Notes under the pieces: model-generated
What the model saw: the letters and a program-made list of their open reading frames with translations, nothing else
Database searches by the model: none
What the model was told of the DNA's origin: nothing
Part shown: one piece after another, positions 1 to 64,000 of the stretch
How the letters are laid out: each line of letters begins with the position of its first letter
Position numbering within the stretch: the stretch's first letter is position 1
Made by a program: the position numbers and the translations under genes
Source of the DNA: a virus
Lineage: Duplodnaviria > Caudoviricetes
Direction: 5' to 3' (one strand)
Length of the DNA: 64,000 nucleotides
Virus record (IMG/VR): IMGVR_UViG_3300036857_000386
Coordinates: 121 to 64,120 of that record

Positions 1-340
1 ACGAGGTGTCACGTTGGACAGGGTTTCGGGTATGACGCGCAGGGTATCGCGCTAAGATCGGACTGGACACGGGCTGAAAGGCTCTCCGCCACACGTGCGG
101 AGTAACTCAATCGACGAGACAGCTAAGTCGCGTGGGCTCCCCTTCAGTGGGAAGCTTGGCGGTCGAAGATGGGAGCGCAAATGCTCAATGCGTGTGAAGA
201 CGGGCAGGTATCCTGCCGGGTAGCACTACTTCGAACCGGAAGACCGCCAAGCGTAGTGGCCATGACGTGTGGAATGTCACAACGGTTGAGAGGGGATGCG
301 GCGTAACCGGACAACGACTCCGACGACACTGGCGATCCCT
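1..340 (+). ncRNA. Candidate large structured RNA (3' part; continues from ~63915-64000 if the genome is circular)
   Basis: Nested stems 154-164/242-252 (11 bp perfect) and 106-113/283-290; GAAA tetraloop hairpin 71-84; hairpins 84-102, 173-186, 203-217, 263-279; no convincing ORF. Confidence 0.55.
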
Positions 341-675
341 AATGAAGCAACACATCCACTCTCGTTATCGGCGTTATGCAGAGCGAGAGCGCTTGTGTTG
401 CACGAACGCAGTTACACATCGCTGCGCTTGTGCAACACAAGCAAATGGACATCTACCATGGCCAAGGTCAATCGCTGTCGTCGTGCCGACGCTGCCGCCA
501 ATGCGGCGCGTTGCGTGCACGTTGTCGCGGCGTCGCCGCGTCGCGGCGCGTCGGCTGCAGTCGCTCGCGCCAACGCCAATCATGGTTTCGGTTACCAGTC
601 GGGCGTTAAGCACGCGTTGTCGCGTCAGCGCACGACGTGGGCGTCGCAATACGCCAAATCTCACGTAAAGTAGGC

Positions 676-1033
676 TAGTGTCAGCTACCTCTGGTATGCA
701 GGACACCGCTTTCGGACAGCGCAGCGCGTTTTCGGCATGCGCCAGAATCGTATTTCGTCCCTATATACTACGTATATAGGGACGGCCTTAGTGCCGGCAA
801 TTTTTGGTGTCCTTATTGTCTGTAGTGTCAGGAGTCTTTTTATAAGCTTCATAGAGTCGATGCGTTTTTGCGAGAAAAAATTCGCGCGCGAAAATGCCGA
901 CTCTAATTGGCTCTCTGCTGCAGAAATTACGCTGACACTAGGACACTAAACGCAGCAAGCGCGTTTAGCGTTGATTTCATTGCCGTTTCAGCGACGTGCT
1001 GACACTAAACCGCATTAATGGTGTCTGACACTA
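676..1033. repeat. CTGACACTA iteron-like repeats (5 exact copies) around an AT-rich palindrome; candidate origin or packaging region
   Basis: Minus-strand copies 676-684 and 823-831; plus-strand copies 932-940, 999-1007, 1025-1033; variant GGACACTA 941-948. Confidence 0.7.
756..784. repeat. Perfect 13-bp inverted repeat with 3-nt loop
   Basis: CGTCCCTATATAC-TAC-GTATATAGGGACG. Confidence 0.9.
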
Positions 1034-1066
1034 AGCGTAAATTCAGCCACTAAATGGACCAATCTG

Positions 1067-1660
1067 ATGTACGACCGCGACATGCCGCGCATGCGTGCGC
1101 ACGCTTTGGCGTCTCCTGAAGGCTTGACGGATGTCATTGCATTCGTGCTGTGCACGATCCAGCAGCCGCTGCAATCGGTGAAAAACCAGCTTGCCGACAT
1201 CCGAGTCAACGGCGTTGACTCCAAATATCTGTTCGGTTCGAAGCGTGCCGGATACGCCTACGCGCAACAACACGCTTCCGTTCTGCATGCCGCAATCGTC
1301 GCTGCCGTGGCAAGCGACGACGTCGTTGGCGCAATCGACGTGCTCACCAACGTGCCTTCATTGGGCATCGTCAAGGCCGCGTTCGTCGCGCAGATATGCG
1401 GGCTGGATGTAGCTTGCATCGATACGCACAATTTGCGCGTGCTCAATCTGCCGGAAACGGCATTCCGTCTGGCCAAGAGCGTCAAGCCTGAAACGCGCCG
1501 CGCCAAGATCGCGCATTACGTCCAAGTCACGCGTGAAACCGGCGGAGCGCGTCACTGGTGGGAAACTTGGTGTGCATTCGTCGCGGGTTCGCGGCATAAT
1601 CGCTCCTTGCCGACCGCCGACGCGGTCTCGGCTTTCCACGTGGATTGCCTACTGGCGTAG
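1067..1660 (+). CDS. HhH-GPD superfamily DNA glycosylase-like protein
   Basis: VPSLGIVKAAFVAQICGLDVACIDTHNLR matches the HhH hairpin plus the catalytic Asp (IDxH) pattern. Confidence 0.65.
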   Translation: MYDRDMPRMRAHALASPEGLTDVIAFVLCTIQQPLQSVKNQLADIRVNGVDSKYLFGSKRAGYAYAQQHASVLHAAIVAAVASDDVVGAIDVLTNVPSLGIVKAAFVAQICGLDVACIDTHNLRVLNLPETAFRLAKSVKPETRRAKIAHYVQVTRETGGARHWWETWCAFVAGSRHNRSLPTADAVSAFHVDCLLA

Positions 1661-10937: not shown

Positions 10938-10984
10938 ATTATCTAGCGGTACCCCTTGCACACGTCAATATCGTAGTATATGTA
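10938..10984. promoter_or_regulatory. Overlapping divergent sigma70-type promoters
   Basis: Minus TTGACG(10968-10963)-N17-TAGATA just before the RHH ATG; plus TTGCAC(10956-10961) with TATATG/TATGTA. Confidence 0.5.
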
Positions 10985-11115
10985 GGCAACGTGGCATGTG
11001 TCATGTGCTGAGAGCAACAGGTGTTTGTTGCTGTCAGGGCATGACGCCCAACCGTGAAGCCAGACAGTCCTCTCGGACGAATCCTCTGGCGCGGGTAAAA
11101 AGAAGGAAGTTGGAG

Positions 11116-62863: not shown

Positions 62864-63202
62864 CTAGCGGAGCGTCAGCTTGGGCTTATCGGCACGCCTG
62901 TCAAGCTGGGAGGGCGGCAGCTTCTGGGTGCTGGAGAGCGGCTTGACGCCAAGCTTGAGCGGCGGCTGCATGCGATCGGGAAGGGCCGAGGGAACGCCGT
63001 CTTCGGCAGAAGGAGGACTGCGCTCGTCCTCGCGGCTGGCCTTGCGGTCGAGCAGATCCAGATAATTGTCCAGGGCGCGGCGGATGTGCTCCTGCAGCGC
63101 AATACTGTCGCGCTCGCGATGGGCGACCAGGCGATCGTACTGGCGCTGCGTGATGCGCATCGGCAGCGGACGTAAATTGGCGGGACGCTGGGAAAAAGGC
63201 AT
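62864..63202 (-). CDS. Ribbon-helix-helix regulator
   Basis: LPMRITQRQYDRL...IALQEHIRRALDNYL. Confidence 0.7.
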   Translation of the reverse strand: MPFSQRPANLRPLPMRITQRQYDRLVAHRERDSIALQEHIRRALDNYLDLLDRKASREDERSPPSAEDGVPSALPDRMQPPLKLGVKPLSSTQKLPPSQLDRRADKPKLTLR

Positions 63203-63230: not shown

Positions 63231-63268
63231 AAAATAGGCGAGGTTCGAACAATTTTCAATTGTGTTAC
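63231..63268 (-). promoter_or_regulatory. Promoter TTGAAA-N17-TATTTT preceded by GTAACACAA
   Basis: Read on the minus strand upstream of the RHH gene. Confidence 0.5.
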
Positions 63269-63783
63269 GGGTTCCTGAGCGAATCGAGGTCCATCTCGAA
63301 GATGCCGCGTTCGCGCAATCTCTGCAGCCTGTGCTTGAGGCTGTCGCGCCTGACGCCAAGCAGCTCTGCTGCCTCGCGCGTCGTCAGCAGCTTGCCGTCG
63401 TCATAGATGAAGCTCAGCGAGCCCGAATGCGGCAGGGCTCTGGGCCTGCGGTTGTCAGCCTGCTCGCGCATCGTCGCCCAGCGCCAGTTGCCCGGTCCAT
63501 AACCCTTGTCGTTGTCCGGTCGGTCCACCGTCAGCCCATACTGCGGAGGATTACCGACGTCCGCGTAGTAGTTCTCGAACTCATGCCACCGCTTGTCGAC
63601 GTGGATGCCGCGTCCGCCGTAGTTGTCATAGCCTGGCGCGTGCTCGTCGTAGCAGCGATCCATCATACCGCTCCAGCGCCGGTAGGCGAGCTGCCTGTCC
63701 AGCTTGACGCGCCTGACATCGGCGTTCGTCCTGGACGATACCTTCCACCTCATTCCGCGTTTTCCAACCATCGGGTTCTCCAT
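63265..63783 (-). CDS. HNH-type homing endonuclease (YGGRGI family)
   Basis: W..M..RC.......Y.NYGGRGI.V..RW..F, DR.DN..GY.P.N.RWAT..Q..NRR. Confidence 0.85.
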   Translation of the reverse strand: MENPMVGKRGMRWKVSSRTNADVRRVKLDRQLAYRRWSGMMDRCYDEHAPGYDNYGGRGIHVDKRWHEFENYYADVGNPPQYGLTVDRPDNDKGYGPGNWRWATMREQADNRRPRALPHSGSLSFIYDDGKLLTTREAAELLGVRRDSLKHRLQRLRERGIFEMDLDSLRNP

Positions 63784-63842
63784 TCTCGATGCGTTGTGTT
63801 ACATCGGTTTTTTGCTTTATACAATTGGGGTACATCCAAAAA

Positions 63843-63872
63843 GGGCGAGGGGGGTGGGGGGCGTTGGGCGGG
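63843..63872 (+). other. G-run tract (G-quadruplex-capable; possible packaging or terminus signal)
   Basis: GGGCGAGGGGGGTGGGGGGCGTTGGGCGGG. Confidence 0.5.
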
Positions 63873-64000
63873 TGGCCGCCGGGTAGGCCCCTAGTTCGCA
63901 TTGCGTGGCTTTTCCCTAGGTGTCCGGAGCGTTTCCAGACAGCCCAACGACAACCGGGGCGAGATGAGGCTAGGCGAGAGCGCGGGCCGCAAGACGAGGT

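What the first reader, a model, noticed from the sequence alone, without database searches (positions are those of the whole stretch)
1..340. Candidate ~420-nt highly structured phage ncRNA spanning the genome junction
Seen: this ORF-poor region has nested stems. Stem 106-113/283-290 encloses 154-164/242-252 (GCTTGGCGGTC/GACCGCCAAGC), which encloses hairpins 173-186 and 203-217. There is also a GAAA-tetraloop hairpin (71-84), hairpins 84-102 and 263-279, and a closing stem ~292-299/332-340. Two further nested stems form only if the ends are joined: 63920-63927 with 63-70, and 63944-63949 with 12-17. The G-U pairs work on the + strand. A TACAAT box lies at 63820-63825. Inference: a large multi-junction RNA transcribed ahead of the early genes. 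It is conceptually like large phage ncRNAs such as GOLLD or ROOL but matches none I recognise. It could be a ribozyme, a decoy or an anti-defence RNA.
Basis: partly seen in the sequence, partly recalled or inferred. Interest (0 to 1): 0.8.

Follow-up and report, generated by a model that had tools for sequence, protein, structure and literature searches.

The report
Conserved structured early leader RNA
The long gene-free stretch at the head of this soil phage's early genes holds folded RNA helices that three related phages keep through compensating base changes, so it is probably a new structured RNA whose job is still unknown.

Summary
Folding energy alone does not set the region apart. The whole 426-nt stretch folds no better than shuffles (z +0.11). 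The core 150-256 ranks 53 of 3200 genome windows.

The case rests on comparison. Three uncultured relatives (L092/L093, L096, L003/L004 type) have the same layout. It runs: sigma-70-like promoter (GTTACA-16-TACAAT, 63798-63825), G-box, CCCTAG hairpin, then a structured stretch.

- Hairpin 84-102 keeps an invariant ACA[A/C]G loop on covarying stems.
- Stem 106-113/283-290 is kept at 7-8 of 8 pairs in all four sequences, with different letters.
- Stems 71-84, 292-297/335-340 and 63944-49/12-17 are kept with compensating changes in L092.

Not supported: 63920-27/63-70, where a local 6-10/66-70 pairing fits better. The 11-bp stem 154-164/242-252 and its two inner hairpins lie in an expansion that only the window has.

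G-U pairs and the alignment fold favour the + strand. One metatranscriptome contig covers 63972-239. There is no Rfam match.

Verdict: a real, clade-restricted structured RNA of about 500-600 nt. It is most likely a cis-acting early leader. Function is unproven, and the evidence rests on four sequence types.

The parts
63798..63825 (+). Promoter-like site P_R: GTTACA, 16 nt, TACAAT. The GTTAC box is invariant in 8 relatives.
   Evidence: 9 of 12 matches; 2 sites found against 0.3 expected. Alignment A8, (GTTAC invariant in 8 of 8 sequences).
63849..63867 (+). G-box GGGGGGTGGGGGG followed by CGTTGG. It is the most conserved DNA of the region and lies in the predicted first 40 nt of the transcript. 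Role unknown.
   Evidence: exact 19-mer in 4 other viral contigs. (CGTTGG invariant in 8 of 8; L092 carries a C-run in place of the G-runs).
63914..63974 (+). H1: arms CCCTAG (63914-19) and CTAGG (63970-74). This is 5 pairs here, 6 in L004, 8 in L092, and 10 in Rhizobium phage RHph_TM27A. The sequence is conserved, so there is little covariation.
   Evidence: Pairing was read directly from the sequences.
63944..63949 (+). P2, 5' arm CCAACG. It pairs with 12-17.
   Evidence: 6 of 6 pairs in the window; 5 of 6 in L092 with 2 both-side changes. Not recognisable in L004 (alignment: 3 of 6).
6..70 (+). P2 3' arm (12-17) and local helix P3 (6-10 with 66-70).
   Evidence: RNAalifold on window + L092, (helix 5: 7 pairs, 3 with both-side change); 5 of 5 kept in L092.
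71..84 (+). P4: GAAA-loop hairpin.
   Evidence: 5 of 5 pairs in the window and in L092, 2 with both-side changes. Loop sequence is not conserved.
84..102 (+). P5: hairpin with a conserved loop ACA[A/C]G and covarying stem.
   Evidence: Alignment A9. Loop invariant in 4 of 4 sequences. 79% of cells paired against 54% in shuffles (2 of 500 reach it). Covariation score 0.75 against 0.18 (0 of 500). Model R1, built only from L096 + L004, gives its best hit here (L001 202-235, E 0.034).
106..290 (+). P6 domain. Closing stem 106-113/283-290; P6b 113-116/275-278 with a conserved UGUC-ACAA 3' side; P7 131-135/260-264; hairpin 137-154. The interior measures 169 nt here, 109 in L092, 40 in L096 and 22 in L004.
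   Evidence: 8, 7, 7 and 7 of 8 pairs in the four sequences, with different letters. Shuffles that put a full 7-mer complement within 3 nt of the expected place: 29, 14, 6 and 4 of 2000. Also.
154..252 (+). Window-specific expansion: the 11-bp stem 154-164/242-252 with hairpins 173-186 and 203-217. L092 has a different 6-bp stem (GGCCGG/CCGGCC) at a similar place. L096 and L004 have nothing there.
   Evidence: (I7), (gaps in L092).
292..340 (+). H4 domain: outer stem 292-297/335-340, inner hairpin 308-311/319-322 with conserved loop CA[A/T]CGAC.
   Evidence: Alignment A10: 11 of 11 pairs in the window and in L092, 5 with both-side changes. Slid controls give 0-1.
347..442 (+). Three-element block: R1 GCAACACA (347-354), R2 GCTTGTGTTGC (391-401), R3 GCAACACAAGC (432-442). 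R2 can pair with R1 or with R3. The R2:R3 hairpin 391-442 is the most stable 107-nt window of the genome.
   Evidence: I1, I3. (z -6.87). (rank 1 of 3200 on both strands); the same R1/R2/R3 order in L092 and L096, where R3 overlaps a Shine-Dalgarno-like AAGGA or AGGAGG.
458..673 (+). Small basic ORF (71 aa) directly after R3. L092 (58 aa) and L096 (85 aa) have an ORF at the same place, but the three products are not detectably alike.
   Evidence: BLASTP E 1.5.

Best explanation
The gene-free stretch from about 63832, across the arbitrary record join, to about 442 is transcribed rightward from a sigma-70-like promoter. It folds into a conserved, modular RNA.

The modules, in order:
- a G-rich 5' end;
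- the CCCUAG/CUAGG hairpin;
- a small 5' domain (P2-P4);
- a hairpin with an invariant ACA[A/C]G loop (84-102);
- directly after it, a multi-branch domain closed by 106-113/283-290, whose interior has expanded in this phage;
- a second conserved-loop hairpin domain (292-340);
- a block of three elements in which CUUGUGUUG (R2) can pair either with an upstream ACACA element (R1) or with a downstream one (R3) next to the start of a small ORF.

Most likely it acts in cis, as a leader that sets expression of the first rightward early unit. The conserved 5' domains would sense or bind something, and the R1/R2/R3 block would open or close the ribosome-binding region.

Shown: the helices, their conservation, the strand and the promoter-like site. 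Inferred: the transcript ends, the switch and the cis action.
For: Same layout in three other phage types, found through the neighbouring RHH-like gene and DNA patterns.

Stem 106-113/283-290 is kept as CTCAATCG/CGGTTGAG, CTCTACT/GGTAGAG, CTCTTCA/TGAAGAG and CCTTTCT/GGAAAGG. In each sequence it starts 3-5 nt after the ACAAG-loop hairpin. Chance placement occurred in 29, 14, 6 and 4 of 2000 shuffles.

Hairpin 84-102 has an invariant loop and a covariation score of 0.75 against 0.18, reached by 0 of 500 shuffles.

For 292-340, 11 of 11 pairs are kept in L092, 5 through both-side changes.

RNAalifold on window + L092 gives 60 pairs, 19 with both-side changes. The column-shuffle z is -1.76 on + (6 of 150 shuffles as low) against +0.35 on -. 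The G-U pairs in the kept helices would be A-C mismatches on the other strand.

The promoter-like site is conserved in position.

There is no protein-level conservation. tblastx hits fall in all frames and include stops.

A metatranscriptome run holds a 261-nt contig identical to 63972-239, and nothing else of the 2320 nt laid.

The R1/R2/R3 order recurs in L092 and L096, with R3 over AAGGA or AGGAGG before the ATG.
Against: Only four sequence types exist in the collections I could reach. Most of the 5' domain and 292-340 rest on one pair (window and L092, about 63% identical).

An automatic four-way alignment gives almost no consensus fold: -6.2 kcal/mol, 16 pairs.

A model built from the two short forms finds only hairpin 84-102 in the window (E 0.034, rough). 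It does not find the closing stem.

Whole-region energy is no better than shuffles.

The L003/L004 type keeps the 5' domains but has no recognisable R1/R2/R3 block and no small ORF. This argues that the 5' domains do something other than gate that ORF.

The window's ORF has no Shine-Dalgarno-like sequence, and the three small ORFs are unrelated.

The RNA contig comes from contigs of one library. Such contigs show neither strand nor ends, and DNA carry-over is not excluded.
Confidence: 0.45

Rival explanations
1. It is a stand-alone, trans-acting early non-coding RNA, such as a decoy, sponge, scaffold or ribozyme. It is made from P_R and possibly released from the downstream message by cleavage at the long 391-442 duplex. 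The small ORF is incidental.
For: The L003/L004 type keeps the G-box, H1, hairpin P5 and domain P6 but lacks the R1/R2/R3 block and the ORF. The loops ACA[A/C]G, UGUC-ACAA and CA[A/T]CGAC are conserved as sequence, as binding surfaces would be. In four other relatives (L006, L008, L098, L100/L101) the same promoter and G-box drive an ordinary gene of about 240 aa, so the RNA sits where a first early product would be. The only RNA-library contig on the 2320 nt laid lies on this element.
Against: No discrete ends are known and no terminator-like site follows until 946-968. There is no match to any Rfam family, ribozymes included. The domain interior varies from 22 to 169 nt, which is unusual for a catalytic core. 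No partner is identified.
Confidence: 0.27
2. It is a replication element. Either it is a structured pre-primer or origin-activating transcript that runs into the palindrome, AT-rich and CTGACACTA-repeat region (676-1033), or it is a single-stranded DNA fold used for priming.
For: The transcript points into an origin-like block that is conserved in layout in L004 and L092. The G-run at the 5' end recalls, from my own knowledge only, G-run/C-run hybrid formation by ColE1 RNA II and at mitochondrial CSB II. The genome splits into two arms at this place.
Against: GC skew shows no clear switch here. In L092 the G-runs are replaced by C-runs on the same strand. Nothing links the conserved helices to the origin-like block. 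G-T pairs are weak in DNA.
Confidence: 0.1
3. There is no functional RNA. The region is a fast-evolving spacer with regulatory DNA sites, and its apparent stems are chance in GC-rich sequence.
For: Whole-region z is about 0. The core ranks 53 of 3200. 80 loci carrying the downstream gene show no similarity to window 1-700. The four-way automatic alignment gives no fold.
Against: Complementarity is kept at anchored positions in four sequences while the letters change. The asymmetry between strands also argues against it.
Confidence: 0.12

Closest known systems
GOLLD and ROOL large non-coding RNAs
   Same: A long, multi-domain structured RNA carried by a phage, with unknown function.
   Different: No Rfam family matches the window or its relatives at gathering score or at E up to 10. 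This element lies in a fixed place behind an early promoter. It is found in only four sequence types and has a variable-size domain.
Riboswitch or attenuator-type leaders (sensor domain plus alternative-pairing expression platform)
   Same: A conserved 5' fold is followed by three elements in which the middle one can pair either way. The third overlaps a ribosome-binding region in two relatives.
   Different: No known aptamer matches. No ligand or protein is known. One relative lacks the platform. No terminator U-run follows R2:R3.
Phage HK022 put RNAs and other processive-antitermination leader RNAs (from my own knowledge, not from a call)
   Same: A structured RNA encoded directly downstream of an early phage promoter that could act on the transcribing polymerase in cis. 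A terminator-like hairpin (946-968) lies between it and the first long gene.
   Different: put RNAs are two stem-loops of about 70 nt, and this element is several times larger.
ColE1 RNA II pre-primer (from my own knowledge)
   Same: A structured RNA of several hundred nt with a G-run, transcribed toward an origin-like region.
   Different: No RNase H site, antisense partner or hybrid-forming C-run was identified. The G-run is not kept on the same strand in L092.

Membership tests
Any Rfam 15 family (including GOLLD, ROOL, HEARO, riboswitches, ribozymes) | Covariance-model score at or above the family's gathering score | tested here: not met
   whole window, 0 matches. L001 1-1200 at E up to 10 gives only 4 weak hits (microRNA precursor, plastid and lncRNA models, best E 0.12); relatives L093, L096 and L010 give 1 weak microRNA precursor hit at E 0.52.
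Structured functional RNA (generic criteria) | Base pairs kept through compensating changes in homologues | tested here: met
   for 84-102, 106-113/283-290 and 292-340. for 63944-49/12-17, 6-10/66-70 and 71-84. Only 4 sequence types, and 2 for several helices.
Structured functional RNA (generic criteria) | Folding energy below shuffled controls | tested here: inconclusive
   Whole region z +0.11 and -0.45. Sub-windows z -2.96 and -3.90, but cut after the fact. Genome rank 53 of 3200. Alignment fold z -1.76 on +.
Structured functional RNA (generic criteria) | A discrete transcript of the right strand | tested here: inconclusive
   one 261-nt contig in one metatranscriptome library covers 63972-239. 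Contigs give no strand and no ends, and DNA carry-over is not excluded.
Riboswitch or attenuator leader | Mutually exclusive pairings that include the ribosome-binding site or a terminator | tested here: inconclusive
   R2 pairs with R1 or R3 in 3 of 3 sequences that have the block. R3 overlaps a Shine-Dalgarno-like sequence in 2 of 3. The block is absent from the L003/L004 type. No U-run terminator is present.
Riboswitch or attenuator leader | A defined ligand, tRNA or protein that shifts the fold | not testable with these tools
   Needs in-line probing, binding assays or genetics.
Self-cleaving ribozyme | Site-specific self-cleavage or a known catalytic core | not tested
   No Rfam ribozyme model matched.

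The most novel reading that the evidence does not exclude
A previously undescribed family of large (about 500-600 nt) early phage RNAs that act in trans. The RNA would be made first after injection from a host-type promoter. It would carry conserved loop motifs (ACAAG, UGUC-ACAA, CAACGAC) on a covarying scaffold and an expandable domain. It would bind or disable a host factor or defence system, or catalyse a reaction.
Probability: 0.25. Interest if true: 0.8.

Novelty: new variant of a known kind. Interest (0 to 1): 0.58.

Why it matters
Large structured RNAs in phages are few, and most have no known function. This one sits at a defined place: it is the first thing transcribed rightward from a host-type early promoter. 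In sister phages that same slot holds an ordinary protein gene. It has conserved loops on covarying stems and a domain that has grown from 22 to 169 nt. That makes it an approachable case for asking what an early phage RNA does, whether gene control in cis, takeover, or counter-defence in trans. If it is only a leader, it is still a new regulatory RNA family for an uncultured group of soil podophages related to Rhizobium phages.

Tried and rejected
Homologue searches
- DNA similarity of window 1-1100 to 50,697 deposited phage records: no match in near or distant mode.
- Relatives found through the downstream 197-aa gene. There were 2 loci in viral contigs and 2 in metagenome contigs, all of the L003/L004 type. 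With a profile there were 80 loci. Of 82 sequences searched, only L011/L012 matched the intergenic DNA, and only at 63794-63880 and 804-823. No tblastx match to window 1-700. nhmmer found only 63912-47, at E 0.052.
- A profile of the G-box region found no new locus among all those held.
- Pattern CGTTGGSCRGGT...GCATT...CCCTAG: 5 viral contigs, which are the 3 known types. In GTDB genomes there was 1 hit, AT-rich and unrelated.
- Pattern AATGTCACAACNGNNGAGA: 8 stretches. One is L096's contig. The other 7 lack the upstream hairpin and complement.
The many close homologues of the 197-aa protein in other collections (241 proteins) could therefore not be traced to DNA.

Structure tests that gave little
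- The four-way MAFFT + RNAalifold run on the 5' domain misplaced L004 and L096 and gave -6.2 kcal/mol. A four-way alignment of 80-298 was also misaligned.
- Model R1, built from L096 + L004, did not find the window or L092 with default filters. With filters off it found only hairpin 84-102 in the window (E 0.034) and only a weak, not best, hit on the right place in L092.

Ideas dropped
- A loop-loop contact between the ACAAG loop and the CUUGUG of R2. The window's loop change to ACACG is not matched in R2, and its best complement lies elsewhere, at 265-272 (read).
- Pairing of the G-box with a downstream C-run. Possible in L096 and L004, weak in the window, and reversed in L092 (read).
- Homology of the small ORFs. 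None found.
- A shared core in Rhizobium phage RHph_TM27A. It has a G-box and a 10-bp CCCTAG inverted repeat but no ACAAG hairpin or closing stem that I could find.
- tRNA or tmRNA: none.
- A phage RNA polymerase (PF00940): no match, but the control genomes did not ring either, so this says nothing.

Sequencing runs
- Parts of the stretch without RNA contigs are not evidence of silence.

Literature
- Three searches (listings and abstract starts only) showed no paper on an RNA in this phage group. Supplements were not seen.

Full report
**Where the finding lies**

The window is bases 121-64120 of a 64,120-nt virus record whose two ends repeat. Record bases 1-120 equal window 63874-63993, and window 63994-64000 repeats window 1-7. 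The unit is therefore a 63,993-nt circle as assembled, and the 'genome junction' is an arbitrary cut.

The phage has T7-like virion genes: portal/adaptor, internal virion proteins and tail fibres on the - strand. Its replication genes are on the + strand. Its nearest cultured relatives are Rhizobium phages of the RHph_TM27A type, with 60% portal identity.

The two gene arms diverge at the finding. The last - strand gene starts at 63783 (an HNH endonuclease). The first long + strand gene starts at 1067. That leaves about 1.27 kb without a convincing gene.

**The observation**

The 11-bp perfect inverted repeat 154-164/242-252 is also reported by the repeat finder (I7). The TACAAT box belongs to a promoter-like site, GTTACA-16-TACAAT at 63798-63825, + strand. 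A second site on the - strand, TTGAAA-17-TATTTT at 63259-63231, serves the leftward genes.

**Is it more than chance by energy?**

For the whole element, no.
- The joined 426 nt has z +0.11 on + and +0.07 on -.
- Window 1-345 has z -0.45.
- Sub-windows cut at the stems do better: 104-292 z -2.96; 150-256 z -3.90 on + and -3.33 on -. These borders were chosen after seeing the stems.
- Against 3200 windows of 107 nt across the genome, corrected for GC, 150-256 ranks 53rd on + and 457th on -.
- The outstanding local fold is the neighbouring hairpin 391-442: z -6.87, rank 1 of 3200 on both strands.

**Known families**

There is no Rfam match at gathering score in the window. Permissive thresholds on the joined region and on three relatives gave nothing credible. 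No tRNA or tmRNA was found.

**Relatives**

The region has no DNA match in deposited phage genomes.

Loci found through the downstream 197-aa gene number 2 + 2, then 80. They mostly have short, unrelated upstream DNA. Only the L003/L004 type shares the flanks. Nothing matches window 1-700 at protein level.

The useful relatives came from two other routes:
- a conserved 19-mer, GGGGGGTGGGGGGCGTTGG;
- the small RHH-like gene to the left, window 62867-63202.

Eight phage types share the block GTTAC box, T-run, -10-like element, CTAAAA, G-box, CGTTGG. In four of them (L006, L008, L098, L100/L101) a gene of about 240 aa follows within 100-230 nt. In the window and in three others (L003/L004 type; L092/L093; L096) a long gene-free stretch follows instead. 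Further pattern scans found no more members.

**Covariation**

(a) Hairpin 84-102. In a gapless alignment of the four sequences, the loop ACA[A/C]G is invariant. The stems read CUCCGC/GCGGAG, CAUCC/GGAUG, CCGG/CCGG and a shorter form in L096. 79% of cells pair against 54% in shuffles (2 of 500 reach it). The covariation score is 0.75 against 0.18 (0 of 500 reach it), and slid partners score at most 0.36.

(b) Stem 106-113/283-290. Three to five nt after that hairpin, each sequence has a 7-8-nt strand. Its complement lies just before a conserved A-G-R flank.

| Sequence | Strands | Pairs of 8 |
|---|---|---|
| window | CTCAATCG/CGGTTGAG | 8 |
| L092 | CTCTACT/GGTAGAG | 7 |
| L096 | CTCTTCA/TGAAGAG | 7 |
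| L004 | CCTTTCT/GGAAAGG | 7 |

In each sequence that site is the best, or joint best, complement in the 300 nt upstream. A full complement within 3 nt of the expected place arose in 29, 14, 6 and 4 of 2000 shuffles.

(c) Inside this stem, a four-pair helix with the conserved 3' side UGUC-ACAA recurs in all four. It is 113-116/275-278 in the window: GACG/UGUC here, GACA/UGUC in L096, GGCA/UGCC in L004, GACU/GGUU in L092.

(d) Window against L092, which are alignable at about 63% identity. RNAalifold gives 60 pairs, 19 with changes on both sides. They include 6-13/64-70, 71-75/80-84, 131-135/260-264 and hairpin 137-154. The structure was derived from the same alignment, so I also shuffled columns. 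The result was z -1.76 on + (6 of 150 shuffles as low) and +0.35 on -.

(e) Region 292-340. All 11 tested pairs hold in both sequences, 5 through both-side changes. Slid controls give 0-1, and the loop CA[A/T]CGAC is conserved.

- 63944-49/12-17 is 5 of 6 in L092, with two compensating changes.
- 63920-27/63-70 is only 5 of 8 and scattered. The local alternative 6-10/66-70 is 5 of 5.
- 154-164/242-252, 173-186 and 203-217 face gaps in L092.
- 263-279 is 3 of 5 and overlaps helices (c) and 131-135/260-264.

The domain closed by 106-113/283-290 has an interior of 169, 109, 40 and 22 nt in the four types.

**Results against the reading**

- An automatic four-way alignment of the 5' domain misplaces two sequences and yields almost no consensus fold.
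- A covariance model built only from the two short forms fails to find the long forms with default filters.
- With filters off, that model recovers the window's 84-102 hairpin as its best hit (E 0.034, rough). It does not recover the closing stem, and it scores only weakly on L092.
- Several helices rest on two sequences only.

**Strand and coding**

The kept helices contain G-U pairs that would be A-C on the - strand, and the alignment fold is better than shuffles only on +. tblastx between the four leaders gives short hits in all frames, with stops. The region is non-coding.

**Transcript**

Of seven runs that hold the DNA, one is a soil metatranscriptome. Its contigs include one of 261 nt identical to window 63972-63993 + 1-239, and nothing else of the 2320 nt laid. 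This is a hint only. Contigs show no strand or ends, depth is 2.8, and DNA carry-over is possible.

**Downstream part**

In the window, L092 and L096, the stretch ends with three elements in the same order:
- R1, ...ACACA(AG)...
- R2, CUUGUGUU
- R3, ...ACACA(A)G...

R2 can pair with either neighbour. R2:R3 scores -27.6, -17.3 and -20.5 kcal/mol in the three sequences. When R3 is held single-stranded, R1:R2 forms in all three. R3 overlaps AAGGA (L092) or AGGAGG (L096) just before an ATG. The window has ATG 458 but no such motif.

The three small ORFs (71, 58 and 85 aa) are not detectably related. The L003/L004 type lacks this block and the ORF, yet keeps the 5' domains.

**What it most likely is**

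It is a conserved, modular + strand RNA of about 500-600 nt, transcribed from P_R. I rate the existence of selected RNA structure at about 0.85.

On function, I favour a cis-acting early leader with a sensor part and an alternative-pairing platform (0.45). Next comes a trans-acting early RNA (0.27). A replication-linked role (0.10) and no function at all (0.12) are less likely. The L003/L004 type, with 5' domains but no platform, is the main argument for the trans reading.

**Novelty**

It is not a member of any Rfam family and is not mentioned in the papers my three searches listed (listings only). It is a new family within a known kind, the structured phage leader or non-coding RNA. So far it is confined to four sequence types from soil and sediment-type metagenomes.

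Noticed in passing
window 63265-63783 (-), with TGTGTTAC at 63262-63270 and 63795-63802: An HNH endonuclease gene (PHROG 3377, E 1e-37) sits between two copies of the TGTGTTAC box. L004, L092, L096, L008 and L006 go straight from the RHH-like gene's promoter to the box. It therefore looks like a free-standing homing endonuclease inserted into the control region of this phage only.
   Followed up: partly
window 63849-63867: The G-box GGGGGGTGGGGGG + CGTTGG is the best-conserved DNA of the region in 7 relatives and could form a G-quadruplex. In L092 the G-runs are replaced by C-runs while both flanks keep their orientation. Rhizobium phage RHph_TM27A has a similar G-run block. No explanation found.
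   Followed up: partly
window 391-442: A 21-bp imperfect hairpin is the most stable 107-nt window of the whole genome on both strands (rank 1 of 3200; z -6.87). It is long enough to be an RNase III-type processing site just before ATG 458.
   Followed up: partly
window 756-784; L004 2722-2750; L092 (reverse complement, after the small ORF): A perfect palindrome, CGTCCCTATATAC-TAC-GTATATAGGGACG. Its arms differ in L004 (ACCCTTACTAC...GTAGTAAGGGT) and L092 (CCCCCTATAC...GTATAGGGGG) but stay palindromic. It is followed by the conserved GGTGTCCTTATTGTCTGT.
   Followed up: no
window 676-1033; L004 2880-2970; L008 and L006 equivalents: Each phage type has its own short repeat clustered before the first long + gene: CTGACACTA here, GACAATTAG in L004 and L008, GCCAATTAG in L006. 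This looks like iterons or operators that co-vary with a phage-specific binding protein.
   Followed up: partly
window 62867-63202 (-): A small protein with an invariant LRPLP.R...QEH.RR.L..YL core is the first leftward gene in all relatives that share the G-box. It has no Pfam or PHROG match. It may be the regulator of the divergent promoters.
   Followed up: partly
L001 about 1006-1015 (window about 886-895): Contigs of three DNA runs (X4, X5, X6) all end here, at the TTCGCGCGCGAA palindrome next to an A-run. This could be strain variation, a repeat, or a physical genome end.
   Followed up: no
window about 10950-11100 (+): Three overlapping 107-nt windows (starts 10950, 10970, 10990) rank among the seven most stable on the + strand.
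   Followed up: no
window 946-968 (+): A terminator-like hairpin, CTAAACGC...GCGTTTAG, is followed by a T-poor tail. After it comes TTGATTTCATT, which is conserved as TTGAATTCATTAGGAAATTT in L004 and L092. This may be a second promoter for the first long early gene.
   Followed up: no
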